NCBI GenBank assembly: GCA_022710715.1
Contig: JAKLGJ010000001.1
Coordinates: 618,041 to 682,040, forward strand
Origin: Candidatus Omnitrophota bacterium
Lineage (GTDB): Bacteria; Omnitrophota; Gorgyraeia; Gygaellales; Profunditerraquicolaceae
DNA length: 64,000 nucleotides
Reading direction: 5' to 3'
Shown: piece after piece, positions 3,291-61,265 of the stretch
Layout of the letters: each line of letters opens with the position of its first letter
Position numbering within the stretch: the stretch's first letter is position 1
Notes under the pieces: model-generated
Seen by the model: the letters and a program-made list of their open reading frames with translations, nothing else
Database searches by the model: none
What the model was told of the DNA's origin: nothing
Made by a program: the position numbers and the translations under genes

Positions 3291-3292
3291 AG

Positions 3293-5381: not shown

Positions 5382-5394
5382 CGCAGCCTCTCTC

Positions 5395-27023: not shown

Positions 27024-28009
27024 TCTTCCACCGTCCTGCGTATCCCTTCTTTAAGCGAAAACCGGGGTTTCCATCCCAGCAAAGCGATCGATTTCTGATT
27101 GTTCACGCACAGAGAACCCGTCAAGCGTTCCACGGCCGCCTGCTTGCGAACCATCGCCGCCAGGCAATTCAGCAGGAATACCGGACAGGGAAAAAGATGC
27201 GCCTTGACCTGTAAACCTGCGGCGATCAAACGGATCAGCTCCGGGGTCGAAAGATCTTTTCCGTCGCTTAAGAGGAAGAGTTGACCGGCGGCGCGCGGAT
27301 GAACTAAAGACAGAAAAATCAGCTCGCACAGGTTCTCCACATACAGCATGCTGCGCCGGTTCTTCACCGCAGCCAGCGGTAAAGGAATTCCCGACTTGAC
27401 CAGCTTGACGAGCTGCGCAAAGTTAGCCCTGACCCCTTTTCCGTAGACCAGGGGCAGGCGCAGGACAACCGGCTCCATCCGGCAATCATGACAGACCTGT
27501 AACAACGCCTGTTCCCCTTCCCACTTGGAAACCGCGTAGGGATCCTGCGGGGCGACCGGCAGTTCTTCGGAAAAATAACGCGTTCCCTCCGGCGTGCCCG
27601 ATGTTTCACCGTTGACTTTGATCGAGCTGATGAAAACAAAACGCTTCACCCCCTGTTTCGCCGCGGCTTGAGCCAGGCAACGCGTGCCGAGCGCGTTTAC
27701 CTGCCGGTACAGCGTCAGCGGCGCCGCTGCCCGCTCGTGCATCACATGAGCCCGGCCGGCCAGATGCACCACGCAGTCGACCCCTCCCAGCGCCGCAGCC
27801 CAGACAGTGTCGGCATTGATCTCGCCGGTTACCACCGTCTCGCTCGCACCCGCAACGGCAGCCGCGGGCAGTTGACGCACAGCCGCCCGCACCCGGAAGC
27901 CCTTCGAAGCCAGATGCACGCACAGATGTCTGCCGATAAATCCGGCAGCTCCGGTAACCAGAACCGTTTTGTTCGAACCTGCGACGGCGGCAGACGAGAA
28001 ATTCTTCAT
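27011..28009 (-). CDS. NAD-dependent epimerase/dehydratase (Cap5N/WbpV-like UDP-sugar epimerase/reductase)
   Basis: VLVTGAAGFIGRHL, YAVSKWEGE YxxxK; 332 aa. Confidence 0.8.
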   Translation of the reverse strand: MKNFSSAAVAGSNKTVLVTGAAGFIGRHLCVHLASKGFRVRAAVRQLPAAAVAGASETVVTGEINADTVWAAALGGVDCVVHLAGRAHVMHERAAAPLTLYRQVNALGTRCLAQAAAKQGVKRFVFISSIKVNGETSGTPEGTRYFSEELPVAPQDPYAVSKWEGEQALLQVCHDCRMEPVVLRLPLVYGKGVRANFAQLVKLVKSGIPLPLAAVKNRRSMLYVENLCELIFLSLVHPRAAGQLFLLSDGKDLSTPELIRLIAAGLQVKAHLFPCPVFLLNCLAAMVRKQAAVERLTGSLCVNNQKSIALLGWKPRFSLKEGIRRTVEECMR

Positions 28010-29145
28010 AATTTTAACAATCCCCCCACATACCTGGCGATAGCCGGGCTGGCGGTCAAGCCCGGGGACTCTATTCCGATAAGATTGACGAAACCGGGAA
28101 AACCTTCGGCGCTTTCTTCCTGAATGATAAAATCGCGGAAAGCGTCGTTCTCGGTCTGCAGCTTCGGCCGGATACCGGCGGTATCAGGCACCAGATCCCC
28201 GGCTTCCAGAAAAGGAAGGTAGGTGACGGCGGCAGTCAGAAATCCCTGCGCAGCTGCGGAATCCACGCTATAATCTACGGAATCCCTTTCGATCGGAATA
28301 TGATCGGGACCTAAACGCAGCGCCCCGGCAAGATTGACCGTAGCATGTATCCCCAATCCCAGCAGCGCTGAATGCGGTAATGGATATACCAGCCGGTTGA
28401 CGTATGCGCTTTTCCGGTCGATCACGCGAAAATAGCGGCCTTTCCAGTAGTTGAGCCGGTACTTTTTCCGCTCCACGTCGAAACCGGCCATAGCCGCGAC
28501 CTCGTCGCAGTTGAGTCCGGCGCAATTGACCACGCAGCGGGTGACGAAGTCAAAACGGTCGCCGGCGGCGTCGATCACCCCGATCCGATATCCCTGACCG
28601 GCGCCCTCGCGCCGGATCTCTTTGACTTCGGATTTAAAAGAAACGATGCTGCCGTACGCCTCGGCCTGCTCCAGGAAAACGTTCATCAAACTGTGCGAAT
28701 CGATAATACCGGTTGCAGGGGAATGGATCGCTGCGTGGGCTTTGATATGCGGCTCCATCTCCCGGATTCTCTCGCGGCCGATGATTTCCAGTTCCCGCAC
28801 CCCGTTGCTGCGGCCATTGGCGCAGAGCTTCTCTAAAGGCTCCTCTTCGCTTTTGTCCAGAGCCACGATCAGCTTACCGACGCGCTTGTGCGGGATCCCG
28901 TAGGCGGCGCAGAGTTCATAGAGCAGGCGGTTGCCTTCCACGCACAGCCGGGCTTTCAGCGAATCCCGCGGATAATAGATTCCGGCGTGAATGACTTCGC
29001 TGTTGCGCGAGCTGGTCTCCATGCCGAAAGCGGTATTCTTCTCCACCACCAGCACCGAAGAACAGCGCGACGAGAGGTGCGCTGCTACGGCCAATCCCAC
29101 CACACCGGCCCCGATCACCGTGATTTCAAATCGTTCCATAATCAA
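28006..29145 (-). CDS. FAD-dependent oxidoreductase, L-2-hydroxyglutarate oxidase (LhgO)-like
   Basis: ITVIGAGVVGLAVA FAD motif; SEVIHAGIYYPRDSLKARLCVEGN matches the LhgO signature region. Confidence 0.65.
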   Translation of the reverse strand: MIMERFEITVIGAGVVGLAVAAHLSSRCSSVLVVEKNTAFGMETSSRNSEVIHAGIYYPRDSLKARLCVEGNRLLYELCAAYGIPHKRVGKLIVALDKSEEEPLEKLCANGRSNGVRELEIIGRERIREMEPHIKAHAAIHSPATGIIDSHSLMNVFLEQAEAYGSIVSFKSEVKEIRREGAGQGYRIGVIDAAGDRFDFVTRCVVNCAGLNCDEVAAMAGFDVERKKYRLNYWKGRYFRVIDRKSAYVNRLVYPLPHSALLGLGIHATVNLAGALRLGPDHIPIERDSVDYSVDSAAAQGFLTAAVTYLPFLEAGDLVPDTAGIRPKLQTENDAFRDFIIQEESAEGFPGFVNLIGIESPGLTASPAIARYVGGLLKL

Positions 29146-29156: not shown

Positions 29157-30374
29157 CTACTCGAGCAGTTTTACAAGCGATTTCAGCACCGCGGCTTTAC
29201 CGAAATGCTGCCGGACGTAGGCGCGGCCGCCGTTTCCCCAGTCTGCCAGTTTACTCTTCTGCTCATACATCTGTTTGACCAGCGCCGCGGCCGTTGCGAC
29301 ATCCGCCGAAGTCGCGGACAACCCGCATCCCGCACTGCGGATCAACCCGTGAGCATCGCTTTCTTTGTGCAGGAACGCCAGCACGGGTTTACCCGCAGCC
29401 ATGAATCCCAGGATCTTTCCCGGGACTACCGGGGTCCTGTTCTTCATGCTTAACACAACCAGACCCACATCCGCCGCAGAATTGACCAGGCCGGGATACG
29501 TTCGCGTGTCGACATAGGGTTTAAAGATCACGTTGGCGATGTTCTCTTCTGAAGCGCGGGCGATCAATCGTTTCTTCTCCGAGCCGTCCCCCACGAATAA
29601 GAACCTGATCGCCGGGAAATCCCGGACTCTTTTGGCCAGGTCAAGGATAAAATCAAGGTCCTGCGAGGGGCCCATCACTCCGGAAAAAAGAAAGACAAAC
29701 GCATTCTGAAGCCCGTAAGCCGCGCGGTAATCCGGCGCGCCTTCGTGAGCGACGAAGGATTCCGTATCGATCCAGTTCGGGATAAAGTGTATTTTCGAAG
29801 CAGCCACCCCTTTTCGCTCTATCAAAAAGCGCACGCTGGATTCGGTATGCGCGGTCAGCACATCGCCGGCCGCATAGGCCTGCGCTTCCATCTTTTCAAA
29901 ATACCGGATCAGCGCTCCGGCTTTCAAAATCCCCAGGTCAACGGCATTCTGCGGGAAGATATCCTGTATATTCAGCATAAACCGGCAGCCGCAGAGCCGT
30001 TTCAACTTTTTTCCCACCAGCGCCAGGGGCAAAGGCGGGCTATACACGATCACCCAGTCGATCCGCTCTTTGACCTGTTTGCGGATCGCCCGCGTAAAAA
30101 GTCCGGGCATGAGCAGCTGGGAAATCCCCCGGATAATGAAACTGCGCTTATACCCGGGGAGATTGCGCACGCGGATACACTTCACCCCCATCTCTTCGCT
30201 CGCCGCCGGCAGCGAGGCCGGCCGGACCCCTTCAGCGACATGCATGCTCGGCCAGGAGGTGACTACCGTGACCCGGTGCCCCGCGCCTGCCAGTTCGCGC
30301 GCCAGTTCCTGCATCATCAGGGAAATTGCGCGTATCTCCGGCGGATAGGTGACGGTCACCAGCACGATGTTCAT
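29157..30374 (-). CDS. GT4 glycosyltransferase (WbuB-like)
   Basis: GT-B fold with C-terminal Glycos_transf_1 region (FLFVGDGSEKKRL...GKILGFMAAGKPVLA). Confidence 0.8.
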   Translation of the reverse strand: MNIVLVTVTYPPEIRAISLMMQELARELAGAGHRVTVVTSWPSMHVAEGVRPASLPAASEEMGVKCIRVRNLPGYKRSFIIRGISQLLMPGLFTRAIRKQVKERIDWVIVYSPPLPLALVGKKLKRLCGCRFMLNIQDIFPQNAVDLGILKAGALIRYFEKMEAQAYAAGDVLTAHTESSVRFLIERKGVAASKIHFIPNWIDTESFVAHEGAPDYRAAYGLQNAFVFLFSGVMGPSQDLDFILDLAKRVRDFPAIRFLFVGDGSEKKRLIARASEENIANVIFKPYVDTRTYPGLVNSAADVGLVVLSMKNRTPVVPGKILGFMAAGKPVLAFLHKESDAHGLIRSAGCGLSATSADVATAAALVKQMYEQKSKLADWGNGGRAYVRQHFGKAAVLKSLVKLLE

Positions 30375-31510
30375 CTGGACACTGCGCCTTTCTTCTGCTC
30401 AAGAGTATCCTGGAAAATCCTGATCAACTCTACGGCCGTGGTCTTCCAGCTGAACGACGCCGCCCGGCGGAAAGCCGCATCCTTGAGCCGGCTGCGCAGC
30501 GTCTGGTCCTGCAACACGCTTTTGAGTTTAGCCGCGATATCCGGCGGATTATCCGGAACAAAATATACCGCCGCCTGAAAGCAGATCTCCGGCATCGGCG
30601 GGCTGAACGAAGCGGCTATGGGTAAGCGGTTGGCCATGGCTTCCAGCAGAGTTTGCGGGCACGCTTCCAGTGTCGAAGGGAACACGAACGCCTCTGCCCG
30701 GGCGTACAGAGCGGCCAGTTCTTCGTGGCGCAGCAGCCCGGTGCAGACAACCTTATTCTGCAAACCGTTGCGCCGGATAAACGACCGGACGCGGCGGAAA
30801 TACCCTTGGTCCAGGACTCCGCCGGCCATGACCAGCCGGGGCGCTGCCGGATCGGCGTCGCACAGGAGCTTGTACCCTTTGACCAGATTCAGCTGATTGG
30901 CGTAGGCCACGAACTTGGAGGCGGTCAGGATATACCGCTGATCATCGGCGAGACCCGGATTGACCGGCGCGGGTTCCGGTTCCGGCCTGCCGTTATACAC
31001 CACAAAGGTTTTACGCGCTGCGCCCGGCGCAACCTCGACAACCCTCTTTTTGACCGCTTGCGAAACCGCCACAATTACATCCGCGCGACGTATGGAAAGG
31101 ACGGTATTGAGCCGGCGGAACCAGGAAAAGAAATCCAGCCGCCAATCATTGCGGTAGCGTTGAAAACACAACGGCTCCATATTCCGGATAGAGGTGATCA
31201 GCGTACACCGGGCTCCGAAAACCGCGGCGTTCTTCGCGGTGAAAAGGATATCCGCTCCGATCTTCTCTAACTCGCCGGGAAGCACCAGTTGTTCCCAGAG
31301 ATGCCGCAGCAATGCCAGCCGGGCGTTGAACCTGATCTGGTGAAAAACGAAATTTGCCTGGCGGACCTGGTCGCACAGAGGGTGGCCGGCCGGTATAAAA
31401 AGATGATATTCGTTGCGTTTATCCACTGCCGCCAGCGCCGGGATCAAATTGCGGAAATAGGTCACTCCGCCGTAACTCAAACCTGACAAAAGGGTCAGCG
31501 CTATCTTCAT
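30371..31510 (-). CDS. GT4 glycosyltransferase
   Basis: C-terminal EAFVFPSTLEACPQTLLEAMANRLPIAA EX7E-like motif. Confidence 0.8.
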   Translation of the reverse strand: MKIALTLLSGLSYGGVTYFRNLIPALAAVDKRNEYHLFIPAGHPLCDQVRQANFVFHQIRFNARLALLRHLWEQLVLPGELEKIGADILFTAKNAAVFGARCTLITSIRNMEPLCFQRYRNDWRLDFFSWFRRLNTVLSIRRADVIVAVSQAVKKRVVEVAPGAARKTFVVYNGRPEPEPAPVNPGLADDQRYILTASKFVAYANQLNLVKGYKLLCDADPAAPRLVMAGGVLDQGYFRRVRSFIRRNGLQNKVVCTGLLRHEELAALYARAEAFVFPSTLEACPQTLLEAMANRLPIAASFSPPMPEICFQAAVYFVPDNPPDIAAKLKSVLQDQTLRSRLKDAAFRRAASFSWKTTAVELIRIFQDTLEQKKGAVSR

Positions 31511-32973
31511 TTTTTGAGCCATGAGAACACCTTCCGCGCATCCAGCAGAAAAAGTCCGGGATTCTTCGCGTAGCCGCGGGTCAAAGCGCGCTTGAGCAAT
31601 ACGCGGGGAGAACTGTTATAGGCGTGCACGCTTTGCAGGATCTCACGGGAAAGTGCGGAGAAACGCTGCGGCGGGATCGTATCCGTTCCGCGGGAGGCCG
31701 GGCTCTGATGAGAATACAGAGCGTAATCCGGATGCTCCGGGATCATCCCTTTCTCCCGGGCCAGATCGAACAGAGGCGTGCCGGGATACGGCGTAAAAAT
31801 GCTGATATTGGCCCAGTCCGGCCGCACTTCCCGCATGAAACGCACGGTATCGCGCACTTCCTGCTCGGTCTCGGTGGGGAACCCGAACATGAAGAAACCC
31901 GACCAGAACATCCCGTTGCGCCGCAGGATCCCGACCGCCTGCCGGATCTGTTCAAGGGTGATATCTTTACGGATCAGCCCCAGGACACGGGGATTGCCGG
32001 ATTCGATACCGATATCGATCTTGGTGCAGCCGGCTTTTTTCATCAAGCGGATGATCTCGTCGCTGACCATGTCCACCCGGGTCAAACAGCTCCAGGTCAA
32101 CCCGCGCGCTTCTTCGCGCAACGCCGCGCACAGCGCTTTAACCCGTTCTTTGTTCACGGTGAACGAATCGTCCATAAAAGTCACATTCTGCACTCCGTGC
32201 TGCCTGCGGATATGCCTGATCTCCCCCATCAGGTTAGCCACGGAACGATAACGCACTCGCCGCGTCCACATATTCTGCGAAGAACAGAATCCGCAGCGGT
32301 ACGGGCAGCCGCGCGACCCCATGACCATATTCAACTGGACAGGCGTATAGGTCGCCAGATCGAGAAGAGCGTCGCGCGCAGCCATGGGCAAAGCGTCAAG
32401 ATCGCCGATCAATCCCCGTTGCGCATTATGCACTATCCTGCCCGCGCTCTTATACGACAACCCGGCAATGGCGCCGAAGTTTTTTGCGTTCCCGGCGAGC
32501 GCCGTCAGCAATTCCGAAAAGGTTTCTTCTCCCTCTCCTCTTACCGCGAAATCTATTTCCGCCGCTCCCAGTATCTGATCGGCGAGCAATGTCGGGTGTT
32601 GCCCGCCGGCAACCACCACCAGCCCGGGCGCGATCCTGCGGGCAAGCGCTGCGATCTTGAGCGCGGAAGGAACTTTGGGGGTCATGATGCTGATACCCAG
32701 GACGTCCGGCTTGAAAGCGGCGATCACTCCGGAAACTTCCTGCCACACCGGATGCGCATCCGTCTCCAGCGCCTGCTTGTAACGGTTGAACTGTTCGGAA
32801 AACTTCACGATCGAGGCGTACTGCGCCTGCGGGTCGTGCTCGGCATGATACACCGCCACCGCATGTCCCCGCGCGCGACAGGCAGCGGCGATACTGGCCA
32901 GCCCCATAGGGTACCATTCGCAGCGAAAACCCGCAAACCGTTCATAGGGAGGTTCAACGAGTAATATTTTCAT
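31507..32973 (-). CDS. B12-binding-domain radical SAM enzyme (class B radical SAM, probable methyltransferase)
   Basis: N-terminal cobalamin-binding-like region MKILLVEPPYERF...GISIMTP and the CxxxCxxC motif GCPYRCGFCSS. Start ATG at 32973 overlaps the AsnB stop (ATGA). Confidence 0.8.
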   Translation of the reverse strand: MKILLVEPPYERFAGFRCEWYPMGLASIAAACRARGHAVAVYHAEHDPQAQYASIVKFSEQFNRYKQALETDAHPVWQEVSGVIAAFKPDVLGISIMTPKVPSALKIAALARRIAPGLVVVAGGQHPTLLADQILGAAEIDFAVRGEGEETFSELLTALAGNAKNFGAIAGLSYKSAGRIVHNAQRGLIGDLDALPMAARDALLDLATYTPVQLNMVMGSRGCPYRCGFCSSQNMWTRRVRYRSVANLMGEIRHIRRQHGVQNVTFMDDSFTVNKERVKALCAALREEARGLTWSCLTRVDMVSDEIIRLMKKAGCTKIDIGIESGNPRVLGLIRKDITLEQIRQAVGILRRNGMFWSGFFMFGFPTETEQEVRDTVRFMREVRPDWANISIFTPYPGTPLFDLAREKGMIPEHPDYALYSHQSPASRGTDTIPPQRFSALSREILQSVHAYNSSPRVLLKRALTRGYAKNPGLFLLDARKVFSWLKK

Positions 32974-34868
32974 GAGCGCACATTCTTCTTCAGCCAGGAT
33001 AACAACACGTAGACGGCCCAGGGCCTGGACCAGGATAAACCGGGTTGATGGTTTTTGAAGAGTTCCCACAGCCGGCGGCATTGCCCGATGTTCACACCCA
33101 GTTCTTCGGCTTGTTCGAACCCATAGAGCTGCTCATCTATCGGCTGTTTGAGCCGGTCGCGCATCCAGATTTCCCAGGGGAAGACAAATCCCATCTTGGG
33201 GCGCCGGAAGAGCTCGGGAGGCAGCATGTCCGCCATTGCCCGGCGCAAAAGATATTTCGCCGGACGCCGCGCTTTGATCGCCGGACAGACCTGCGCTATC
33301 GCGGCTACAAGCTCATGATCGAGGAACGGCACGCGCACTTCCAGGGCGTGGCTGTTACTCATGAAATCGCAATCGCGCAAGAGCATGTTTGCCAGATAAC
33401 CGCGCATCTCGAGCAAAGAAACGGCGGAAAAAAGATCCAGTCCCCGCACCTGCCCGCGCAGGCTTTCGGCCACGGCGTCCTGAATACCTGAACGCGGCCC
33501 CCTGCTCGCTCCATCTGCCAAAAGCGCATGCCTGGCTGCCGGAGAGAACAGCTGACGCAACACCGCATAAAGTTCAACCGGATCGGCTTTTGCCTGGAGT
33601 ATCCCGATGGTTTTGACTGTGCCCACCCGGAACATATCTTTACCCCCGGGCAGACGCCAGAACGGCAACCAGCCTGCCGCGGCGGAAAACAAACGCGCCC
33701 AAAACATGCGCTGGAAAGTGGAATAACCGCCGAATACCTCATCCCCGCCCTGACCGGAAAGCACGACTTTGATTCCTCTTTGACGGACTGCCTGCGAGAT
33801 GAAATAAACGTTGATCCCGTCAATAGTCGGCTGATCCATGGCTGCGATTGCCCGGGGAATGATCTTGAGCACATCGTCCTGGCTGGCCTGTATCCGGGTA
33901 TGCTCCGGACAATAGCGGCCGGCTACAAGTTGAGAATACCTGGCTTCGGAGAATCTATCCTCGGCGAAAACGACGGAGAAAGAACGCAGTCCGGCTTTGA
34001 GCGTGCCGTTGGCCAGCGCGGCGATAGAGCTGGAATCGATGCCGCCGCTCAAAAACAGCCCTACAGGCACGTCGGAAACCAGATGCGCTTCAACGCTCTC
34101 GAGCAGACGTGCCTGGACCAGCGCGACGGCTTCCCGCGGGTCGGTGATCGAACCCCTCTCTTCATCCGCAAACGGCTGCCAGTAGCTTTGAATCCGGCAG
34201 GTACCGGATTTCAGATCAAAAATCAGCAGCGTTCCGGGCAGCAAAACACGCACATCCCGGATCATGGTCAGGGGCGCCTGTACGGCGCCAAAAGCCAGGT
34301 AGGAATCTACCGCCAGAGGATCGATCTGCCGCGCCACCAGCCCGCTGGCCAGCACCGATCGCAACTCGGAGGCGAAAACGAAATGTGCGGCAGGCGAGCA
34401 CGAATAATAGAACGGTTTGATCCCGAAGCGGTCCACGGCGCAGAAGACCACCTCCCGCTGGGTATCAAGCAAAGCGAAAGCGAACATCCCGCGCAGCTTC
34501 TCAAGGCAGCCGGCCGCCCATTCCTGATAGGCGGCGATGATCACTTCGGAATCGGAATGCGAAACGAATTCGTACCCTTTTTCTTCCAGCTCGCTGCGCA
34601 GCTGGCGGTAATTATATATTTCTCCGTTATAGGTCAGCCGGAAGCGCTGCTGTCGATCAGCCATTGGCTGGTGGCCGGAAGCAGTGGTATCGATGATCGC
34701 CAGCCGCCGGTGCGCCAGGCCGCATTCCCACTCCTGATTCCCCGCACACGCAAGTACATCCATCCCCCGGTCGTCCGGCCCGCGATGCGCCAGAGCCGCG
34801 GACATCGCCTCCAGCCGCGATTTCTCGAATAATCTTTTTTTTGCGATTATACCGGCTATTCCGCACAT
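32970..34868 (-). CDS. Asparagine synthase (glutamine-hydrolysing) family amidotransferase (WbpS-like)
   Basis: MCGIAGI N-terminal Cys nucleophile, HRGPDD, SGGIDSS PP-loop; 632 aa. Confidence 0.9.
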   Translation of the reverse strand: MCGIAGIIAKKRLFEKSRLEAMSAALAHRGPDDRGMDVLACAGNQEWECGLAHRRLAIIDTTASGHQPMADRQQRFRLTYNGEIYNYRQLRSELEEKGYEFVSHSDSEVIIAAYQEWAAGCLEKLRGMFAFALLDTQREVVFCAVDRFGIKPFYYSCSPAAHFVFASELRSVLASGLVARQIDPLAVDSYLAFGAVQAPLTMIRDVRVLLPGTLLIFDLKSGTCRIQSYWQPFADEERGSITDPREAVALVQARLLESVEAHLVSDVPVGLFLSGGIDSSSIAALANGTLKAGLRSFSVVFAEDRFSEARYSQLVAGRYCPEHTRIQASQDDVLKIIPRAIAAMDQPTIDGINVYFISQAVRQRGIKVVLSGQGGDEVFGGYSTFQRMFWARLFSAAAGWLPFWRLPGGKDMFRVGTVKTIGILQAKADPVELYAVLRQLFSPAARHALLADGASRGPRSGIQDAVAESLRGQVRGLDLFSAVSLLEMRGYLANMLLRDCDFMSNSHALEVRVPFLDHELVAAIAQVCPAIKARRPAKYLLRRAMADMLPPELFRRPKMGFVFPWEIWMRDRLKQPIDEQLYGFEQAEELGVNIGQCRRLWELFKNHQPGLSWSRPWAVYVLLSWLKKNVRS

Positions 34869-34882
34869 GCGATCATAGTGTG

Positions 34883-35728
34883 TTAACCCTTGCTTTCGGG
34901 CTTATGCGAGAGATGGACCAGCATGAAGTTGCCGAAGCCCAGGCAGCGCAGGAAGAAATTCAAAATCAGTTGCGCCTCGGCAAAAAACCGTCCGAGATAC
35001 TTTTCCGGCCCCATCTTCTGATGATCAAAGACCACCTGCTGCCGGTGCGAAATGAACGGCATGTAATCCCTGGGCAGCCAGAGAAAGGTTTTTGATCTGA
35101 TCTGAATGGAACGGGGCAGCGCCGCAAAAGATTTCCTGGTCAAACGGTCCGGACGATACCCCGCACCTTCCCCTTCCGCCCTGCGCGCCAGGTTCAATCT
35201 GGCCAGGAAATTGAGGAAAGGATTCGTGGTCGGCTCGACAATAATAACGTTCTCGAACGTCTCTGTCAGGCTGGACACGAGAGCGTCTATCCGGTTGCAG
35301 TGATGCAGACACAGGAAGGCGACTGCGCAGAACGCGCGCGCGCGGGGAGAAAAAGCCAGATTATTGAAACTGCAGGAAAACACCAGATCAGGCTGCGCGG
35401 CCCCGTAATTCCGGAACACCGCCGGTATGAGACGAAGTTCGAATTCCGACAGGTCGGTCACCACGCACTTTTTGCACGCAGGATAGTGCGCGCGTATATA
35501 TGCCGCCTCGTTGCCTGACCCCGAGCCGATAAAAACCAGGTTCCGGTAGCCCCCGGCGCGAATGACCTTGAGCACCTCATCATATAAATGGCGCAGGAAA
35601 CGGGAATCATACGGATGAGAATACCGCAGTTTAAACGACTGCAGCTTGACATTCGCCGGCTTGAACAGGTTATTGTCCCGGCTTTCCGCCAATTCGGTAC
35701 GTTCTATGGAACGAGTAAACTCGTTCAT
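34883..35728 (-). CDS. Hypothetical protein, possible class I SAM-methyltransferase fold
   Basis: NLVFIGSGSGNEA glycine-rich loop followed by an acidic VTDLS. No other recognisable family signature. Confidence 0.4.
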   Translation of the reverse strand: MNEFTRSIERTELAESRDNNLFKPANVKLQSFKLRYSHPYDSRFLRHLYDEVLKVIRAGGYRNLVFIGSGSGNEAAYIRAHYPACKKCVVTDLSEFELRLIPAVFRNYGAAQPDLVFSCSFNNLAFSPRARAFCAVAFLCLHHCNRIDALVSSLTETFENVIIVEPTTNPFLNFLARLNLARRAEGEGAGYRPDRLTRKSFAALPRSIQIRSKTFLWLPRDYMPFISHRQQVVFDHQKMGPEKYLGRFFAEAQLILNFFLRCLGFGNFMLVHLSHKPESKG

Positions 35729-36693
35729 GCCTTTTTCTTCCCCCTCGCAACGAGACCGTTGTAGCCCTTTTCAACGCTGACCGCCGTTAGACCGGCGCGA
35801 GCGAACCAGCGCTCGACGCTGCCGCTGGTTTGCGGAAGGTCAAACGCCGGAGCGTACATATCGAAGGTATCCAGCAGCGCCCATTCGCGATTCAGCTCCG
35901 CGGACAGGCCGAGATGACTGTATTCAGCGATAGGCAGTAATCTGGCTCCCAGCGGCCCCAGCATTTTTCGAAAAACGGCAGCCGGAACGATCATCCGGTC
36001 CACCCATTTTTCCATCAACGCGTATAATCTCTGCCGGTCCATCCTCCTGAACAGCGGCCGCAGGAGATATTTCCAGTGCATCAAAGAAACCAACGATTTT
36101 CTGTAAACATCGATCACGATCTGGCCGCCGGGCTTGAGATACTGCGCCAGGCCGGCGAACGCCGCAGACGGATCAGGAGTATGCTGCAATACCCCCAGAC
36201 AGAGAACCTTATCGAAAGAACCTTTTTCCAGAGGTATATGATAGATGTCGGCCTGAAAAAGCAGAAGATTTGATGCCTGACCGTTATTCTCCCGGTTGGC
36301 GTCAACTGCCCGGCTATAGTCGAAAGAATACACCTCGGCGCCGGTCTCCAGCAGTATCTGGGTGAACCTGCCTGCGCCGGAACCGGCTTCGAGCACCCGC
36401 TGGCCGCGCAGATCCTGCGGCCACCCGGTCTGGGCGAACAGCCTGTCCCGGGAAAAATGGAAACCGTTGAATTTATCGAGCTGCGCTTTGCGATGGCGAT
36501 TCCATTGCAGTCCGAACGAATCGCAGTAATTCCCGGGCTCCACGAAACGCGGTATGCCGTTGACGACCGGGAACTCCCGCCGGCAAGACGCACATTTCGG
36601 AAAATCGCGAACGTCGGTCAAACCGCCGCCGCACCGGGGGCAGCGAAAAATATCGCGGCTGTCCGCCGTTGTTTCAGTTCCCTGCGCGTTCAT
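35725..36693 (-). CDS. Class I SAM-dependent methyltransferase with N-terminal Trm112-like zinc ribbon
   Basis: CPRCGG...CASC at the N-terminus; VLEAGSGAGRF motif I; ADIYH; 322 aa. Confidence 0.75.
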   Translation of the reverse strand: MNAQGTETTADSRDIFRCPRCGGGLTDVRDFPKCASCRREFPVVNGIPRFVEPGNYCDSFGLQWNRHRKAQLDKFNGFHFSRDRLFAQTGWPQDLRGQRVLEAGSGAGRFTQILLETGAEVYSFDYSRAVDANRENNGQASNLLLFQADIYHIPLEKGSFDKVLCLGVLQHTPDPSAAFAGLAQYLKPGGQIVIDVYRKSLVSLMHWKYLLRPLFRRMDRQRLYALMEKWVDRMIVPAAVFRKMLGPLGARLLPIAEYSHLGLSAELNREWALLDTFDMYAPAFDLPQTSGSVERWFARAGLTAVSVEKGYNGLVARGKKKA

Positions 36694-38272
36694 AGAGATA
36701 ATATGCTCCGTCAGTGGCGACCTGTTTCCATTGCCGGGTATCTGCGGCTATGGAAGCGAATTCGCTCTCATCGATAAAAGCCGGGCTCCGGCTGGAGAGG
36801 CCGTTATTGGTCGAGTCAAACAGGATATAGTCGGCGGTATACGCGCCGTCTTTGCTGGTCAGCATGGGAAAGAGCATCACGCCTTTCTGGCGATACAGCC
36901 GCGGAGCCAGGAATTGTTGCGTGGAAACGATCGCGTTTTCGGGAATACGTTCGACGAAACGGTTAACCGCGAGATGATGGCCGGTAACGGCATACGCGGA
37001 ATAGTGAAAATTCTGGGTGCGAAACGGCGCCGGCCGCACCCGGGCAAACCAGAATTGCAATGACAGCGGCGATGGTCCGAAAAAGACGCCCGCGGTAATC
37101 ACCGCGGCCAGCAATGAAAAAGCCAGAGCGTAAGAAGTTTTTTTCAGGGAGGCATCCCCCCGCTGCCAGCGCCGCACCGATAGCACGAGCCGGGGGAACG
37201 CTTTGATCGATGCATAGATGATGAAAGCGATCCCGGGCGAAAGATAATACAGCATATACGACGAGTGCACCGTGGATTCGCTCAATAAACCGATGGCTGC
37301 CTGCGGCAGGAAAGGCACCAGCGCGGACAGCGCAAACAAAGGCGCCCCGGCCAGAGGGACAAAGAACATGGCGATGTTCATCAGTTTTACCCCGCCCAGC
37401 ATGCGCACCAGCGTCTGCGCGGGATGCGACACCATATATCCGGCGACGTCGGCCATCGACGTCCCCATGCCGCTGAAGGATCCCATGGCGATATGGGCAT
37501 ACTCGCCCGCGCGAAACGCCGGCATGACCAGCCGGGTAATGATCAAAAATCCGCCGAGTCCGGCAAGAGCGGTCGCTATGCCGGTTAAGCGGCGACGGGA
37601 CCAGATACTGGCATAGAGACCGAAGAAAAAAACGGTTAATCCCACCTCTTCCCTGACCAGGACCGCGGCCGCAACCATTACCCAGTACAGGAGATTCTTT
37701 CTGGCTTCCCAGGCATAGAGCATCCAGAGAAAAACGGGAATACAGAACCGCAGCATTTCGAATTCATACAGCACGGTATACTGAAAGGTGGGATACCAGA
37801 GCAAGAGCGCCACGACTGCCCGGGTGAGTATCCGGTCTTTGAGCATGACCCTGGCCAGCTTATACAGAGGGATCGCCGCCGAAAACAGTAACACCGTATT
37901 CAGCAGGATAAGCGTGACCGCCGACGGGACAAGGAAAAACGCGCCGCCCAGCAGATAAATACCCGGGACAAAATGCACGGAAAAATAATTCGCGGTGCCG
38001 GGGGCGAAGAACGCATGACTGAAACTCACCGGCAGGCCGTACACCGACAGCGCATGCAACAGGCTCAACCAGTGGGAAAAATCCGCATACAGATGTAAAG
38101 AGAAATATTTACCGAGCTGCGCCAGGGGGATATACAGCGCTGCGATGAAAACGGCCGACGTTACCCTGCGCAGCCTGACAGCGCCGCGCCCGGCGCCGCA
38201 GCGCAACGCTGCCGCCGCCGCCGCAAAAACCGCGACGACCCCCAGACCATAATACGCGATCAACGCTTTCAC
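36674..38272 (-). CDS. Large polytopic membrane protein (DUF2079-like/GT-C-like; putative membrane glycosyltransferase or polymerase)
   Basis: 532 aa with at least 12 hydrophobic segments and a periplasmic C-terminal domain. Confidence 0.5.
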   Translation of the reverse strand: MKALIAYYGLGVVAVFAAAAAALRCGAGRGAVRLRRVTSAVFIAALYIPLAQLGKYFSLHLYADFSHWLSLLHALSVYGLPVSFSHAFFAPGTANYFSVHFVPGIYLLGGAFFLVPSAVTLILLNTVLLFSAAIPLYKLARVMLKDRILTRAVVALLLWYPTFQYTVLYEFEMLRFCIPVFLWMLYAWEARKNLLYWVMVAAAVLVREEVGLTVFFFGLYASIWSRRRLTGIATALAGLGGFLIITRLVMPAFRAGEYAHIAMGSFSGMGTSMADVAGYMVSHPAQTLVRMLGGVKLMNIAMFFVPLAGAPLFALSALVPFLPQAAIGLLSESTVHSSYMLYYLSPGIAFIIYASIKAFPRLVLSVRRWQRGDASLKKTSYALAFSLLAAVITAGVFFGPSPLSLQFWFARVRPAPFRTQNFHYSAYAVTGHHLAVNRFVERIPENAIVSTQQFLAPRLYRQKGVMLFPMLTSKDGAYTADYILFDSTNNGLSSRSPAFIDESEFASIAADTRQWKQVATDGAYYLYERAGN

Positions 38273-39467: not shown

Positions 39468-40359
39468 GCTTGTTCCTTTCGTAGTGAACGAGTTCCCTGA
39501 TCGCATCTTCCATCGGCCTGGCATGCCGGACCAGCTTCTGCAACGAACGGAAACGGGAACGCAGGATGCGCCGGACCGTGCCGTTGCCCTGCCGGACCTT
39601 GATCAAGGTGATCTTTTTCTTTAAAACGCGCCGCAGGATCTCCAGGAGACGGTACTTGGTCACTGTTCTGTTGGGAGTAAAATGGAATACCGCGGATTTC
39701 TTCCGCAATGACGCAAAAGCGCCGGTGACCATTATCTCCCGGCACAAACGCGCAAATTGCAGGGTGGTGACCCCGTTCCAGTAATGATTGCTGTACCCCC
39801 GGACCCGGGCGCCTGCAGGCAATCCGGCGAACCATTCCCATAATCCGCCCTTTTCGTGAGGACTGGGACCCAGGATCGAACAGCGGATAGTGAGGAAGTT
39901 GTCCGCTGTAGCTTCTCCGGCCAACTTCGTCCTGCCGTAGACGTCCTGGCAGTCCGGCCGCGACCGTTCGGTATAGCCCGGTTTGGTCCCCCGGAACACG
40001 CCGTCCGTAGAAATGTGGATGACCCGGCAACCGTAACCGGACGCCGCTGCGGCCAGCCAGCCGGGAAATTCCGCGTTGATCGCGCGCGCCCGTTTGACCG
40101 ATGCGGCATCGCTCTCGTCGATCTTATTCGCGGTGATACCGATGCAATTTATGCAGTAATCACATCCCCCCGTCTTTTCGATCAGCCGGGCGAACCCGCG
40201 CGGACCATCCAGGACATTAAAATATCCGGCCGCCCGCTTATCGTCCATCCGGGTGCCCGCAACGCGCAAACGGCGATCCTGCCTGAGCAGCCGGTATACC
40301 ATCTGCCCCAGCATTCCGGTTTTACCCAGCACCAGGACCCGCAGCTTACTTTCCGACAA
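39460..40359 (-). CDS. RmlD-family NAD(P)-dependent sugar reductase/epimerase
   Basis: LRVLVLGKTGMLGQ Rossmann motif, YGRTKLAGE YxxxK. No in-frame ATG after the upstream stop; a TTG at 40359 preceded by GGAGG is proposed as the start. Confidence 0.5.
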   Translation of the reverse strand: MSESKLRVLVLGKTGMLGQMVYRLLRQDRRLRVAGTRMDDKRAAGYFNVLDGPRGFARLIEKTGGCDYCINCIGITANKIDESDAASVKRARAINAEFPGWLAAAASGYGCRVIHISTDGVFRGTKPGYTERSRPDCQDVYGRTKLAGEATADNFLTIRCSILGPSPHEKGGLWEWFAGLPAGARVRGYSNHYWNGVTTLQFARLCREIMVTGAFASLRKKSAVFHFTPNRTVTKYRLLEILRRVLKKKITLIKVRQGNGTVRRILRSRFRSLQKLVRHARPMEDAIRELVHYERNKHG

Positions 40360-41626
40360 TGCTGACCTCCGGAAGCGGCACGATGAATGAACCGCCCTGT
40401 TCGAGATAATCAACCCTGCGTTTTTTGACTTCGTTGATGAAACTCCAGGCGAACAAGAGCGCATACTCGGGAAACGCACCCTGTGTAACGGCATCCCAGG
40501 GTTTGATCGCCACATGCGTGCCCGGAGTGTAAAAACCGTGTTTGGCCGGCGCGTCATCCACCACATAGTCAAGGTATTTACCGTCTATCCCGCAGAAATT
40601 CATGATCGTGGTGCCCCGGCCTGAGGCCCCGTAGCCGATAATGGTCTTTCCTCGGCTCTTAAGATCGTTCAGGACCCGCATCAGGGCGGTGCGCGTGCCC
40701 TTGACTTTATCGCCGTACCCCAGGAACGTTTCCGCCTTATCGTACCCGCGTTTTATTTCGTCCGCGCGCATCTTCTCCACCGCCGGGCTGACCGCATCCG
40801 TACGCTTGCCTTTATTCCGGGCATAGAACCTCACTGCCCCGGAACGCACGCCCGGAGTGAATTTCGTGTCGAACATCTCCATACCGTACGTCCCCAGAAA
40901 ATGATCCAGGGCTTTGAGCGAATAATAACTCATGTGTTCGTGGTAGATCATATCGTACTGCATTTCTTCGATCAAGGTGCCCAGGTAATACACTTCAAAA
41001 ATGAATACCCCGTCATCCTTGAGCAGTTTTTTGACCCCCTTGATCACGCTGATCATGTCGTCTATGTGAGCGAAAGAATAACTGGAGGTAATGGCGTCGA
41101 AACGGCCGAATTCCCTGCTGATCCGTTCGCCCACCGCTTCGCAGAAAAAATCGTTGATCACGGTGATGTCCTTGCTCTCGATGGACTTCACCACGTTGGT
41201 CGCCGGATCGACGCCGACGGCTTTGACGCCGAGTTGCGCGAACGGTTTGAGCATCACCCCGTCATTGCAGCCGATCTCGAACACCGAAGGGTTCTTCCTG
41301 TCCTTAAGAAAGCGCTCGGTGGTTTCCCGGGCGAAATCAGCCAGATGGTCGACCAGCGTCCTGATCGCCGAAGAGAAATAAAAATAGTTCTTGAAGAGGA
41401 CCTCGCCGGGGACGACGTTGCTAACCTGCAGCAGACAGCACTTCCGGCAGAAATTAAGTTCGAGCGGATAGAACTTCTCTTCGGAAAATTCGGTGTCCTT
41501 CAGGAACCCTCCGGCCAGAGGCACGTTTCCGAAATCCAGCACTTTCACCAGATCCGTGCTTTCACAAAACCTGCAGGTGGTTCTCTGGGTAAACAAGCCC
41601 AGCGGTCTTTTTTCTTGCGTCTTCAT
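40346..41626 (-). CDS. NDP-hexose C-methyltransferase (TylC3/NovU family) with N-terminal zinc ribbon
   Basis: CRFCES...CRKCC zinc finger; EIGCNDGVMLKPF SAM motif; C-terminal C-methyltransferase domain. AAGGA RBS before the ATG at 41626. Confidence 0.75.
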   Translation of the reverse strand: MKTQEKRPLGLFTQRTTCRFCESTDLVKVLDFGNVPLAGGFLKDTEFSEEKFYPLELNFCRKCCLLQVSNVVPGEVLFKNYFYFSSAIRTLVDHLADFARETTERFLKDRKNPSVFEIGCNDGVMLKPFAQLGVKAVGVDPATNVVKSIESKDITVINDFFCEAVGERISREFGRFDAITSSYSFAHIDDMISVIKGVKKLLKDDGVFIFEVYYLGTLIEEMQYDMIYHEHMSYYSLKALDHFLGTYGMEMFDTKFTPGVRSGAVRFYARNKGKRTDAVSPAVEKMRADEIKRGYDKAETFLGYGDKVKGTRTALMRVLNDLKSRGKTIIGYGASGRGTTIMNFCGIDGKYLDYVVDDAPAKHGFYTPGTHVAIKPWDAVTQGAFPEYALLFAWSFINEVKKRRVDYLEQGGSFIVPLPEVSIVGK

Positions 41627-41642
41627 GGTTGTCCTTTCCGGA

Positions 41643-61263: not shown

Positions 61264-61265
61264 AT

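What the first reader, a model, noticed from the sequence alone, without database searches (positions are those of the whole stretch)
31507..36693. Decoration module: B12-binding radical SAM enzyme coupled by ATGA overlap to a genuine AsnB amidotransferase, followed by two SAM-methyltransferase-like genes
The radical SAM gene has CxxxCxxC and an N-terminal cobalamin-type domain, and its ATG overlaps the TGA of a full-length Cys-containing AsnB at 32970-32973. Immediately downstream are an unannotatable protein with a methyltransferase-like glycine loop and a class I methyltransferase with a zinc ribbon. Class B radical SAM enzymes methylate unactivated carbon or phosphorus, and in this context the module would put an amide plus unusual C- or O-methyl groups on one sugar (a uronamide is the usual product of WbpS-type enzymes). 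I am not aware that this four-gene combination has been assigned a product. This is the strongest candidate for new chemistry in the window.
Basis: partly seen in the sequence, partly recalled or inferred. Interest (0 to 1): 0.7.

Follow-up and report, generated by a model that had tools for sequence, protein, structure and literature searches.

The report
Sugar-decorating genes in an LPS operon
Four tightly packed genes (two methyltransferases, an amide-forming enzyme and a B12-type radical SAM enzyme) sit inside one long cell-surface sugar operon of an uncultivated Omnitrophota bacterium; they are real and uncharacterised, but they are two separable cassettes rather than one fixed module, and their product cannot be read from sequence.

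Summary
At 31507-36693, all on the minus strand, lie four genes:
- a zinc-ribbon class I methyltransferase (MT322);
- a 281-aa protein (p281);
- a full-length AsnB-type amidotransferase;
- a B12-binding-domain radical SAM enzyme (rSAM) whose ATG overlaps the AsnB stop (ATGA, 32973-32970).

The methyltransferases lie upstream of AsnB in the direction of transcription, not downstream.

New results:
- p281 is a divergent class I methyltransferase and a distant paralogue of MT322.
- The AsnB belongs to a large clade with an invariant Glu-to-Gln change (SGQGGDE). It scores below the cut-off of the WbpS-type family.
- The rSAM reaches no curated family cut-off. Its nearest solved structure is AprD4, a cobalamin-free sugar dehydratase.

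The four-gene set occurs only in the source species. MT-AsnB-rSAM-GT4-GT4 recurs in three other lineages with the same 4-nt overlap. Equally close rSAM orthologues lack MT-AsnB, and AsnB orthologues occur without the rSAM. No UDP-sugar 6-dehydrogenase gene lies in the window, which weakens the uronamide idea.

Best reading: two optional decoration cassettes in an LPS or surface-glycan operon, with unresolved chemistry. Moderate interest.

The parts
35725..36693 (-). MT322: class I SAM methyltransferase (322 aa) with an N-terminal CxxC...CxxC zinc ribbon. It is the first gene of the MT-AsnB cassette.
   Evidence: Methyltransf_11 72.6 bits and Methyltransf_23 66.8 bits. C18xxC21...C34xxC37 is visible in the translation. 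Orthologues at 50-56% identity sit directly upstream of AsnB in L086, L169, L172 and L176.
34883..35728 (-). p281: divergent class I methyltransferase-fold protein (281 aa) without a zinc ribbon. It is nearly an orphan and is a distant paralogue of the MT322 family.
   Evidence: No Pfam or NCBIfam hit. One close homologue, P0122 at 44% identity. A profile search gave 63 hits. Of the 30 aligned family members, 18 match Methyltransf_25 and 3 match Trm112p. AF2 pLDDT 92.9. Foldseek top hits are all SAM methyltransferases. hhalign against MT322 gives 98.3% probability. ATGA overlap with MT322.
32970..34868 (-). AsnB-family glutamine-dependent amidotransferase (632 aa). It belongs to a clade marked by SGQGGDE (Q373) in place of SGEGSDE.
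   Evidence: GATase_7, GATase_6 and Asn_synthase. TIGR01536 438.8 bits, above its cut-off. TIGR03108 (WbpS-type) 420.7 bits, below its cut-off of 816.9. Q373 is invariant in 19 aligned sequences, and Gln fills this position in 119 of the 120 best homologues. E. coli AsnB and TsnB9 have Glu there.
31507..32973 (-). Radical SAM enzyme (488 aa) with an N-terminal B12-binding-type domain. Its start is translationally coupled to the AsnB stop.
   Evidence: Pfam B12-binding 84.8 bits and Radical_SAM 98.8 bits. It is below every NCBIfam cut-off; the best is BchE at 223 bits against 481. CxxxCxxC is invariant. AF2 pLDDT 89.4. Nearest solved structures are AprD4, MgmA, TsrM, CysS and TokK. ATGA overlap.
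30371..31522 (-). GT4a: family 4 glycosyltransferase. It is the most constant neighbour of the rSAM.
   Evidence: Glycos_transf_1 and Glyco_transf_4. It overlaps the rSAM stop. Orthologues at 46-56% identity lie directly downstream of the rSAM in L085, L086, L169 and L176, and downstream of the p281 homologue in L172.
29157..30374 (-). GT4b: WcaI-like family 4 glycosyltransferase. It is the second gene downstream of the rSAM.
   Evidence: NF007640 WcaI family 166 bits, below its cut-off of 276. It has a 4-nt overlap with GT4a. Orthologues at 50-57% identity occur in L085, L086, L169 and L176.
36674..38272 (-). DUF2079 polytopic membrane protein directly upstream of MT322. It is a frequent companion of the cassette.
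   Evidence: PF09852 136.4 bits. A DUF2079 gene lies upstream of the cassette in L085, L086, L169 and L176, and nearby in L087 and L175.

Best explanation
The finding is an internal stretch of one long, single-strand operon for a lipopolysaccharide or other cell-surface glycan in an uncultivated Candidatus Omnitrophota bacterium.

The transcription order is: UDP-GlcNAc-2-epimerase-like > DUF2079 membrane protein > zinc-ribbon methyltransferase (MT322) > ribbon-less paralogous methyltransferase (p281) > AsnB-type amidotransferase > B12-domain radical SAM enzyme > GT4a > GT4b > FAD oxidoreductase > SDR > small phosphoglycosyl transferase > WbpM-like dehydratase.

They are two separable decoration cassettes placed next to each other.

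1. [Zinc-ribbon MT + AsnB]. Here it has an extra, lineage-specific methyltransferase copy (p281).
2. [rSAM + GT4a + GT4b].

Inferred mechanism for cassette 1. The N-terminal Cys2 of AsnB hydrolyses glutamine. The ammonia passes to the PP-loop domain, which adenylates a carboxylate on a sugar, or on a substituent of a sugar, and converts it to a carboxamide. The methyltransferases add O- or N-methyl groups.

Inferred mechanism for cassette 2. The [4Fe-4S]-SAM site makes a 5'-deoxyadenosyl radical that abstracts a hydrogen from a sugar carbon of the unit built by the two GT4 enzymes. The outcome is either methyl transfer from methylcobalamin, which is the commonest chemistry for this architecture, or a dehydration or rearrangement.

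Shown here: the gene content, the domains, the folds, the coupling and the pattern of co-occurrence. Inferred: every substrate and product.
For: Context:
- About 50 co-directional genes include GT2, GT4 and GT9 transferases, two Wzy_C proteins, Bac_transf, Polysacc_synt_2, DegT aminotransferases, nucleotidyltransferases and an ABC exporter.
- Gene junctions from DUF2079 to Bac_transf overlap or are at most 17 nt apart.

Modularity:
- MT-AsnB-rSAM-GT4-GT4, with a 4-nt AsnB/rSAM overlap, occurs in L086, L169 and L176.
- rSAM-GT4 without MT-AsnB occurs in L085 (62% identity) and L171 (63%).
- rSAM orthologues also lack AsnB in L170 (the same organism as L089) and L087.
- MT-AsnB without the rSAM occurs in L172 and L175, and AsnB stands alone in L174.
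- In a neighbour-joining tree of the rSAM orthologues, AsnB-linked and unlinked genes are interspersed.
- A GT4 gene is adjacent to the rSAM in 7 of 8 other lineages.

AsnB is glycan-dedicated: orthologues at 47-52% identity lie in glycan clusters in all six other loci. It keeps Cys2 and the PP-loop.

p281 is a methyltransferase.

rSAM: both Pfam domains match, and the full-length fold matches B12-type rSAM enzymes.
Against: - No substrate is identified for any of the enzymes.
- No UDP-sugar 6-dehydrogenase or other obvious source of a carboxylate was found. I scanned every minus-strand ORF of 200 aa or more in the window and read the listed Pfam content of the flanks of L086, L169 and L176.
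- The conserved translational coupling of AsnB and the rSAM in four lineages could mean that the two enzymes work together, which the two-cassette reading plays down.
- Cobalamin binding is not established. The closest solved relative, AprD4, has a similar N-terminal domain but binds no cobalamin (PMC12931638).
- The census covers only 8 other lineages on the rSAM side and 6 other AsnB-orthologue loci. One locus (L176) was reached through AsnB itself.
Confidence: 0.55

Rival explanations
1. The four genes form one dedicated module that acts on a single sugar and makes a C- and/or O-methylated uronamide. AsnB works like WbpS, and the rSAM is a class B cobalamin-dependent C-methylase.
For: - AsnB and the rSAM are translationally coupled here and in L086, L169 and L176.
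- MT322 and p281 are coupled in the same way.
- The WbpS-type model TIGR03108 is the second-best hit and aligns end to end (1-610 of 628, E 1e-125).
- WbpS, WbqG and PGN_1234 are genetically shown uronamide formers (PMC7468200).
- Most characterised B12-rSAM enzymes are C-methylases, including ones that act on carbohydrates (PMC12931638).
Against: - The four-gene set is absent outside the source species.
- The rSAM and AsnB occur apart in equally close relatives.
- The TIGR03108 score is about half its cut-off.
- No UDP-sugar 6-dehydrogenase lies in the window or in the flanks of the related cassettes.
- The AsnB clade has Gln where E. coli AsnB and TsnB9 have Glu.
Confidence: 0.15
2. The rSAM is not a methylase and may not use cobalamin. 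It would carry out a radical dehydration, epimerisation or ring rearrangement on a sugar, as AprD4 does (1,2-diol dehydratase on paromamine) or HpnJ does (a hopanoid-associated B12-type rSAM).
For: - AprD4 is the best solved match by sequence (E 1.5e-36) and by fold (TM 0.69-0.75 over the full length).
- Of the three best NCBIfam models, BchE (223 bits) and HpnJ (187 bits) are not methylases.
- The review PMC12931638 lists BchE, HpnJ and OxsB as non-methylating B12-rSAM enzymes, and says that AprD4 sits in these networks although it binds no cobalamin.
Against: - The AprD4 sequence and NCBIfam matches cover only the rSAM core (residues 186-424). The N-terminal domain is matched by the Pfam B12-binding model (84.8 bits) and by the BchE, ApyD and PhpK models.
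- Methylases (MgmA, TsrM, CysS, TokK) follow closely in fold score.
Confidence: 0.3
3. AsnB and the rSAM act together on a non-sugar carboxylate that is later attached to the glycan, for example an amino-acid or acyl substituent. This would be a small tailoring pathway like those of natural products that combine AsnB-like enzymes with rSAM enzymes.
For: - The 4-nt coupling is conserved in four lineages.
- The closest solved AsnB relative is TsnB9, a hydroxyamidotransferase that acts on a polyketide acid (7ylz, E 4e-49).
- No uronic-acid-forming gene is nearby.
Against: - No carrier protein, ligase or amino-acid-activating gene lies in the cassette.
- The neighbours are glycosyltransferases and nucleotide-sugar enzymes in every locus.
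Confidence: 0.1
4. The AsnB is the organism's housekeeping asparagine synthetase and sits in the operon by accident.
For: - It exceeds the cut-off of the general model TIGR01536, 438.8 bits against 267.1.
- Sources name it 'asparagine synthase (glutamine-hydrolyzing)'.
Against: - Orthologues lie inside glycan clusters in all six other loci examined.
- The AsnB-B model NF006949 scores 289.6 bits against a cut-off of 499.
- The Glu equivalent to E. coli Glu348 is Gln in 119 of the 120 best homologues.
Confidence: 0.03

Closest known systems
WbpS (P. aeruginosa O6), WbqG (E. coli O121) and PGN_1234 (P. gingivalis): AsnB-like amidotransferases that make uronamide sugars (eps_aminotran_1, TIGR03108)
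   Same: Full-length AsnB architecture with an N-terminal Cys and a PP-loop. They are encoded in surface-glycan clusters. TIGR03108 aligns end to end with the window's protein at E 1e-125. The amidotransferase role of these proteins has genetic support (PMC7468200).
   Different: The score of 420.7 bits is about half the family cut-off of 816.9. There is no uronic-acid-forming dehydrogenase nearby. The window's clade carries an invariant SGQGGDE motif; I could not check whether WbpS shares it.
Class B (cobalamin-dependent) radical SAM methylases: GenK, GenD1, Fms7, Fom3, TokK, MgmA, TsrM and CysS
   Same: N-terminal B12-binding-type Rossmann domain plus a CxxxCxxC rSAM core. The fold matches MgmA, TsrM, CysS and TokK at TM 0.61-0.68. 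Some members methylate carbohydrate carbons (PMC12931638).
   Different: Sequence identity to the solved members is 15-21%. No curated family cut-off is reached. The known sugar-acting members serve antibiotic pathways, not LPS or surface glycans.
AprD4: radical SAM 1,2-diol dehydratase of apramycin biosynthesis (PDB 6fd2)
   Same: Best solved match by sequence (E 1.5e-36) and by fold (TM 0.69-0.75, 22% identity over the whole length). It acts on a sugar.
   Different: AprD4 binds no cobalamin. The NCBIfam AprD4 model scores 137.9 bits against a cut-off of 500 and covers only residues 186-416.
BchE (anaerobic Mg-protoporphyrin monomethyl ester cyclase) and HpnJ (hopanoid-associated rSAM)
   Same: The best and third-best NCBIfam models (223 and 187 bits), aligned across both domains. 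Sources often mislabel homologues as BchE.
   Different: Both scores are far below the cut-offs (481 and 578). There are no tetrapyrrole or hopanoid genes in the neighbourhood.
TsnB9: hydroxyamidotransferase of trichostatin biosynthesis (PDB 7ylz)
   Same: Closest solved relative of the AsnB (E 3.9e-49 over residues 1-388) and of similar length (623 aa).
   Different: TsnB9 keeps the Glu (SGEAADE). It acts on a polyketide acid with a hydroxylamine donor and has no glycan context.
Class I SAM methyltransferases with a Trm112-like zinc ribbon (Methyltransf_11/25)
   Same: MT322 has this architecture. Relatives of p281 have it too (Trm112p hits in 3 of 30). The p281 family profile aligns with MT322 at 98.3% probability.
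   Different: p281 itself has lost the ribbon and escapes all Pfam and NCBIfam models. No member of either subfamily has a known substrate.

Membership tests
Cobalamin-dependent (class B) radical SAM enzymes | Radical SAM core with a CxxxCxxC [4Fe-4S] motif | tested here: met
   PF04055 98.8 bits. C223, C227 and C230 are invariant in 16 orthologues.
Cobalamin-dependent (class B) radical SAM enzymes | N-terminal B12-binding-type domain, by HMM and by fold | tested here: met
   PF02310 84.8 bits against a cut-off of 32.1, residues 19-156. The full-length fold matches TsrM, TokK, CysS, MgmA and OxsB.
Cobalamin-dependent (class B) radical SAM enzymes | Actually binds and uses cobalamin | not testable with these tools
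   AprD4, the nearest solved relative, has a similar domain but binds no cobalamin. I know of no diagnostic sequence motif. This needs cofactor analysis of the purified protein.
Any curated B12-rSAM family (BchE, HpnJ, ApyD, PhpK, AprD4, MgmA-type and others) | Score at or above the family's curated NCBIfam cut-off | tested here: not met
   Best scores against cut-offs: BchE 223.3/481, ApyD 195.7/750, HpnJ 187.2/578, PhpK 151.3/600, AprD4 137.9/500, MJ_0865 124.4/360.
AsnB-family glutamine-dependent amidotransferase (Ntn glutaminase + PP-loop synthetase) | N-terminal catalytic Cys directly after Met, with a GATase class II domain | tested here: met
   The protein starts MCGI. GATase_7 149.8 bits and GATase_6 136 bits. 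Of the 120 best homologues, 102 start MCGI or MCGF.
AsnB-family glutamine-dependent amidotransferase (Ntn glutaminase + PP-loop synthetase) | Asn_synthase domain with the SGGxDS PP-loop | tested here: met
   PF00733 257.5 bits. S274-G-G-I-D-S279 is invariant.
Bona fide asparagine synthetase B (Asp to Asn) | Glu at the position of E. coli AsnB Glu348 (SGEGSDE). From my memory of Meyer et al. 2010, this residue is needed for acyl-adenylate formation. | tested here: not met
   The window has SGQGGDE (Q373). Gln is invariant in 19 aligned sequences and fills this position in 119 of the 120 best homologues. E. coli AsnB and TsnB9 have Glu. NF006949 scores 289.6 bits against a cut-off of 499.
WbpS/WbqG-type uronamide-forming amidotransferase (TIGR03108, eps_aminotran_1) | Score at or above the family cut-off | tested here: not met
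   420.7 bits against a cut-off of 816.9, although the alignment runs end to end.
WbpS/WbqG-type uronamide-forming amidotransferase (TIGR03108, eps_aminotran_1) | Genomic association with a UDP-sugar 6-dehydrogenase that supplies the uronic acid | tested here: not met
   No UDPG_MGDP_dh family hit passed the thresholds in any minus-strand ORF of 200 aa or more in the 64 kb window. The only trace is a sub-threshold N-terminal Rossmann match in the FAD oxidoreductase. None is listed in the flanks of L086, L169, L172 or L176. Such a gene elsewhere in the genome is not excluded.
Class I SAM-dependent methyltransferase (p281) | Seven-stranded Rossmann-like fold with a GxGxG SAM loop and an acidic residue after strand 2 | tested here: met
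   AF2 model with pLDDT 92.9, pTM 0.91 and seven strands in the expected order. 528 PDB matches at E<=0.001, and all of the top 50 are methyltransferases. G68, G70 and D92 are invariant in the family. 18 of the 30 aligned members hit Methyltransf_25.
Class I SAM-dependent methyltransferase (p281) | Binds SAM and transfers a methyl group | not testable with these tools
   This needs a binding or activity assay.
A conserved four-gene module (MT322 + p281 + AsnB + rSAM) | Co-occurrence of all four genes outside the source species | tested here: not met
   p281 homologues occur only in the source species and in L172/L173, which show no rSAM between AsnB and GT4. Three of the four genes co-occur in L086, L169 and L176.

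The most novel reading that the evidence does not exclude
The recurring cassette zinc-ribbon MT - AsnB (Gln-373 clade) - B12-type rSAM - GT4 - GT4 installs a sugar modification not yet described in any LPS or surface glycan. An example would be a radical C-methylated, deoxygenated or rearranged sugar carrying a carboxamide. If so, this rSAM orthologue group would be, as far as I could find, the first B12-type radical SAM enzyme assigned to LPS or O-antigen assembly. The group has more than 100 sequence clusters across Omnitrophota, Planctomycetota, Elusimicrobia, Acidobacteria and other groups.
Probability: 0.25. Interest if true: 0.7.

Novelty: new variant of a known kind. Interest (0 to 1): 0.4.

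Why it matters
B12-type radical SAM enzymes perform some of the hardest C-H functionalisations known. Every sugar-acting example characterised so far comes from antibiotic pathways. I found no paper in the held library that assigns one to LPS or O-antigen synthesis.

This work defines two uncharacterised groups that travel with two GT4 glycosyltransferases in the surface-glycan operons of uncultivated anaerobes:
- an rSAM orthologue group that reaches no curated family cut-off;
- an AsnB clade with an unusual active-site Gln.

It also shows which genes belong together, which gives enzymologists a minimal and testable construct: PGT + GT4b + GT4a ± rSAM ± MT-AsnB. If the chemistry is new, it would add to the known repertoire of bacterial sugar modifications. 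If it is a plain methylation and amidation, the finding is routine O-antigen variation.

Tried and rejected
1. A scan of genome contigs with the rSAM alignment. The patterns used (RGCPYxCxFC, DFVVRGEGE) are generic for B12-rSAM enzymes.
2. A scan of metagenome contigs with the single rSAM protein. It returned few true orthologues: L089/L090 at 55% identity and the short L091 at 66%.
3. tblastn of ten window proteins against all 168 loci held then. Distant B12-rSAM paralogues almost never have AsnB nearby, so linkage is a property of the orthologue group only.
4. Direct BLASTP of p281 against MT322 found nothing. Only the profile comparison revealed the relationship.
5. PDB sequence searches with the DUF2079 protein (no hit at E<=1) and with GT4a (one weak hit) gave nothing useful.
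6. Literature searches found no relevant paper. I tried B12-rSAM with polysaccharide, O-antigen or LPS terms, DUF2079 alone, and the gene combination. The paper on E. coli AsnB Glu348 is not in the held library, so that point rests on my memory.
7. I considered and rejected these readings:
   - BchE, despite source annotations, because the score is below the cut-off and there is no tetrapyrrole context.
   - A lasso-peptide or beta-lactam type AsnB homologue, because there is no precursor or natural-product context.
   - A housekeeping AsnB.
   - The longer rSAM ORF starting at 33081, because homologues all start at MK[IV]LL.
8. Matching contig lengths between the rSAM and AsnB hit lists suggest three more co-located pairs (19077, 14869 and 1108098 nt).

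Full report
**What is there**

All ORFs in and around 31507-36693 run on the minus strand. In the direction of transcription the genes are:

| Gene | Coordinates | Note |
|---|---|---|
| Epimerase_2 protein | 39524-38277 | |
| DUF2079 membrane protein | 38272-36674 | |
| MT322 | 36693-35725 | |
| p281 | 35728-34883 | |
| AsnB | 34868-32970 | |
| rSAM | 32973-31507 | |
| GT4a | 31522-30371 | |
| GT4b | 30374-29157 | WcaI-like |
| DAO-family FAD oxidoreductase | 29145-28006 | |
| SDR | 28009-27011 | |
| Bac_transf phosphoglycosyl transferase | 27023-26451 | |
| WbpM/PglF-like Polysacc_synt_2 protein | 26400-24571 | |

Gene junctions from DUF2079 to Bac_transf either overlap or are at most 17 nt apart. 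The ATGA overlaps AsnB/rSAM (32973-32970) and MT322/p281 (35728-35725) are visible in the sequence.

From about 7.2 kb onward the rest of the window is the same kind of cluster. It contains:
- GT2, GT4 and GT9 glycosyltransferases;
- two Wzy_C proteins;
- three DegT aminotransferases;
- nucleotidyltransferases and 4,6-dehydratases;
- a TylC3-like C-methyltransferase;
- a carbamoyltransferase;
- an FkbM methyltransferase;
- an ABC exporter.

Exact-match look-ups place the sequence on a 1.62 Mb contig from anaerobic-digester metagenomes. NCBI names the proteins as Candidatus Omnitrophota.

**Check of the observation**

- *rSAM.* It matches Pfam B12-binding (84.8 bits, residues 19-156) and Radical_SAM (98.8 bits). 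C223xxxC227xxC230 is invariant among orthologues. The 488-aa start at 32973 is supported by about 100 homologues of 487-490 aa that align over the full length.
- *AsnB.* It begins MCGI and has GATase_6, GATase_7 and Asn_synthase domains and the PP-loop SGGIDSS.
- *MT322.* It is a Methyltransf_11 protein with an N-terminal CxxC...CxxC motif.

The only error is direction. The two methyltransferase genes are upstream of AsnB and the rSAM, not downstream.

**The 281-aa protein**

It has no Pfam or NCBIfam match. It has one close homologue (P0122, 44% identity) in the word-indexed search of 5.8 billion proteins.

A profile of the two sequences finds 63 proteins among 1.84 billion representatives. 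Most of these are 300-330 aa long and have an N-terminal CxxC pair. I aligned 30 family members. Of these, 18 match Methyltransf_25 and 3 match Trm112p.

AlphaFold with this alignment gives pLDDT 92.9 and pTM 0.91, with seven strands in the order typical of class I methyltransferases. Foldseek against the PDB returns only SAM methyltransferases at the top. G68, G70 and D92 are invariant in the family. The family profile aligns with MT322 at 98.3% probability, covering the ribbon and the LHHT.D / LQHTPD motif.

p281 is therefore a ribbon-less, fast-evolving paralogue of the gene next to it.

**The AsnB**

It exceeds the cut-off of the general model TIGR01536 (438.8 bits against 267.1). It scores 420.7 on TIGR03108, whose cut-off is 816.9. 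PMC7468200 places the genetically validated uronamide formers WbpS, WbqG and PGN_1234 in that family.

Its closest solved relative is the hydroxyamidotransferase TsnB9 (7ylz), followed by E. coli AsnB. In the alignments, the E. coli motif SGEGSDE and the TsnB9 motif SGEAADE correspond to SGQGGDE here. Q373 is invariant in 19 aligned sequences, and Gln fills this position in 119 of the 120 best homologues. From memory, the equivalent Glu348 of E. coli AsnB was reported to control acyl-adenylate formation. I could not retrieve that paper.

The protein is an intact glutamine-dependent amidotransferase of a distinct clade. It is probably not an asparagine synthetase, and it is not a threshold member of the WbpS family.

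**The rSAM**

No curated family cut-off is reached:

| NCBIfam model | Score (bits) | Cut-off (bits) |
|---|---|---|
| BchE | 223 | 481 |
| ApyD | 196 | 750 |
| HpnJ | 187 | 578 |
| PhpK | 151 | 600 |
| AprD4 | 138 | 500 |

The AlphaFold model has pLDDT 89.4. It is closest to AprD4 (TM 0.69-0.75, 22% identity over the full length), then to the cobalamin-dependent methylases MgmA, TsrM, CysS and TokK, and then to OxsB. AprD4 is a sugar 1,2-diol dehydratase. According to PMC12931638 it does not bind cobalamin, although it clusters with B12-rSAM enzymes.

The domain call therefore stands. Cobalamin use and methyl transfer are not established.

**Co-occurrence**

| Locus | rSAM identity | Gene order | AsnB adjacent? 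|
|---|---|---|---|
| L085 | 62% | DUF2079 > rSAM > GT4 > GT4 > SDR > Bac_transf | no |
| L171 | 63% | rSAM > GT4 | no |
| L169 | 59% | MT > AsnB > rSAM > GT4 > GT4 > SDR > Bac_transf | yes |
| L086 | 58% | DUF2079 > MT > AsnB > rSAM > GT4 | yes |
| L170 (same organism as L089) | 55% | GT > rSAM > DUF362 | no |
| L087 | 48% | (no adjacent AsnB) | no |
| L088 | 42% | AsnB homologue 7 kb away, next to NeuB | no |

Neighbourhoods reached from the AsnB or p281 side:
- L176: DUF2079 > 870 aa > MT > AsnB > rSAM > GT4 > GT4.
- L174: AsnB alone among glycosyltransferases.
- L175 (Uhrbacteria): MT > AsnB without the rSAM.
- L172, reached from p281: MT > AsnB > p281 homologue > GT4a orthologue, with no rSAM in between. 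This contig is only 4.9 kb long.

tblastn identities confirm orthology of the components. The AsnB/rSAM 4-nt overlap is kept in L086, L169 and L176.

In a neighbour-joining tree, AsnB-linked rSAM genes (window, L086, L169, L176) are interspersed with unlinked ones. L085 and L171 are sister to the window, and L170 is sister to L176. Linkage has therefore been gained or lost repeatedly.

A GT4 gene is adjacent to the rSAM in 7 of 8 other lineages. Distant B12-rSAM paralogues (25-39% identity, about 150 loci) almost never have AsnB nearby.

**Interpretation**

The evolutionary units are [zinc-ribbon MT + AsnB] and [rSAM + GT4a + GT4b]. They are often fused into one translationally coupled block, but each occurs without the other. 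p281 is a lineage-specific extra.

This fits optional, combinable decorations of the sugars added by the two GT4 enzymes onto a primer. That primer would be made by the SDR, the WbpM-like dehydratase and Bac_transf.

The amidation step is the best-founded inference, because the glutaminase and PP-loop machinery is intact. Its substrate is open. No UDP-sugar 6-dehydrogenase is encoded in the window or in the held flanks of L086, L169, L172 and L176.

For the rSAM, I put C-methylation at about 40-50% and a non-methylating radical reaction on a sugar at about 30%.

**Novelty**

Each protein belongs to a known superfamily, and glycan clusters with tailoring enzymes are a known kind of system. Three things have no characterised counterpart:
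- the rSAM orthologue group;
- the Gln-373 AsnB clade;
- their recurrent coupling with two GT4 genes.

I found no paper that links a B12-type rSAM to LPS or O-antigen synthesis. That search covers only the held library.

I rate this as a new variant of a known kind, with interest 0.4. It is a reasonable target for enzyme discovery, but the evidence for new chemistry is only circumstantial.

Noticed in passing
window 32970-34868 (residue Q373): The AsnB clade has SGQGGDE where E. coli AsnB (SGEGSDE, Glu348) and TsnB9 (SGEAADE) have Glu. Gln fills this position in 119 of the 120 best homologues. This Glu-to-Gln change at a residue reported to be catalytic marks a large uncharacterised clade of AsnB-like proteins found in glycan clusters.
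   Followed up: partly
window 52067-53842 and 53836-55650 (minus strand): Two tandem, overlapping proteins of about 600 aa carry only a weak, partial Asn_synthase PP-loop region and no glutaminase domain. They lie near a GFO_IDH_MocA oxidoreductase (51097-52266), a DegT aminotransferase (49363-50520) and a HisH/HisF-like pair (62371-63971). From memory, this resembles the WbuX/Y/Z or WbpG type of acetamidino-forming system.
   Followed up: no
window 40346-41650 (minus strand): A TylC3-type sugar C-methyltransferase (Methyltransf_13 zinc domain + Methyltransf_14). It is followed downstream by an RmlD-like reductase and the Epimerase_2 gene. The same trio precedes the cassette in L085. The cluster therefore already has a conventional, non-radical route to a C-methyl branched sugar.
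   Followed up: no
L086 1985-3418; L087 4628-6070; L169 1-645; L170 14251-15708: Related glycan clusters carry a second B12-binding rSAM gene (477-485 aa). The three full-length copies are only 28-33% identical to the orthologue group studied here and to each other. Several distinct B12-type rSAM families seem to be common in the surface-glycan loci of these uncultivated anaerobes. The window has only one.
   Followed up: partly
window 28006-29145 (minus strand): A DAO-family FAD oxidoreductase lies between GT4b and the SDR. Its best NCBIfam models are L-2-hydroxyglutarate oxidase (248 bits, cut-off 299) and type 2 glycerol-3-phosphate oxidase. It was found in none of the related loci, so it is a source-specific addition whose substrate is unknown.
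   Followed up: partly
window 13532-15244 and 48381-49346 (minus strand): A NodU/CmcH-type carbamoyltransferase (Carbam_trans_N/C) and an FkbM/RfbT-like methyltransferase. Both are further tailoring enzymes in the same cluster.
   Followed up: no
window 59725-61314, 61266-62423, 56858-57931, 129-821 (minus strand): Long ORFs (529, 385, 357 and 230 aa) with no significant Pfam match, lying inside or at the edges of the glycan cluster. The 357-aa ORF has only a weak Glyco_trans_1_2 hit.
   Followed up: no
window 1-64000: Every ORF with a family match lies on the minus strand, and cumulative GC skew falls steadily across the window. The glycan cluster ends near 7.3 kb. Below that come PriA (5395-7272), a methionyl-tRNA formyltransferase-like gene (4437-5414), two GalT-like genes (2280-4330) and GAPDH (1145-2194).
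   Followed up: partly
window 31507-32973 (residues C296, C316): Two further cysteines (in WSCLTR and GCTK) are invariant in the 16 aligned rSAM orthologues, besides the CxxxCxxC triad. Their role is unknown. Two residues are too few for an auxiliary cluster on their own.
   Followed up: no
L172 2935-3762: The only close homologue of p281 sits exactly where the rSAM sits elsewhere, between AsnB and the GT4a orthologue. The contig is 4.9 kb long, so it is unclear whether the rSAM has been replaced or merely lies off the contig.
   Followed up: partly
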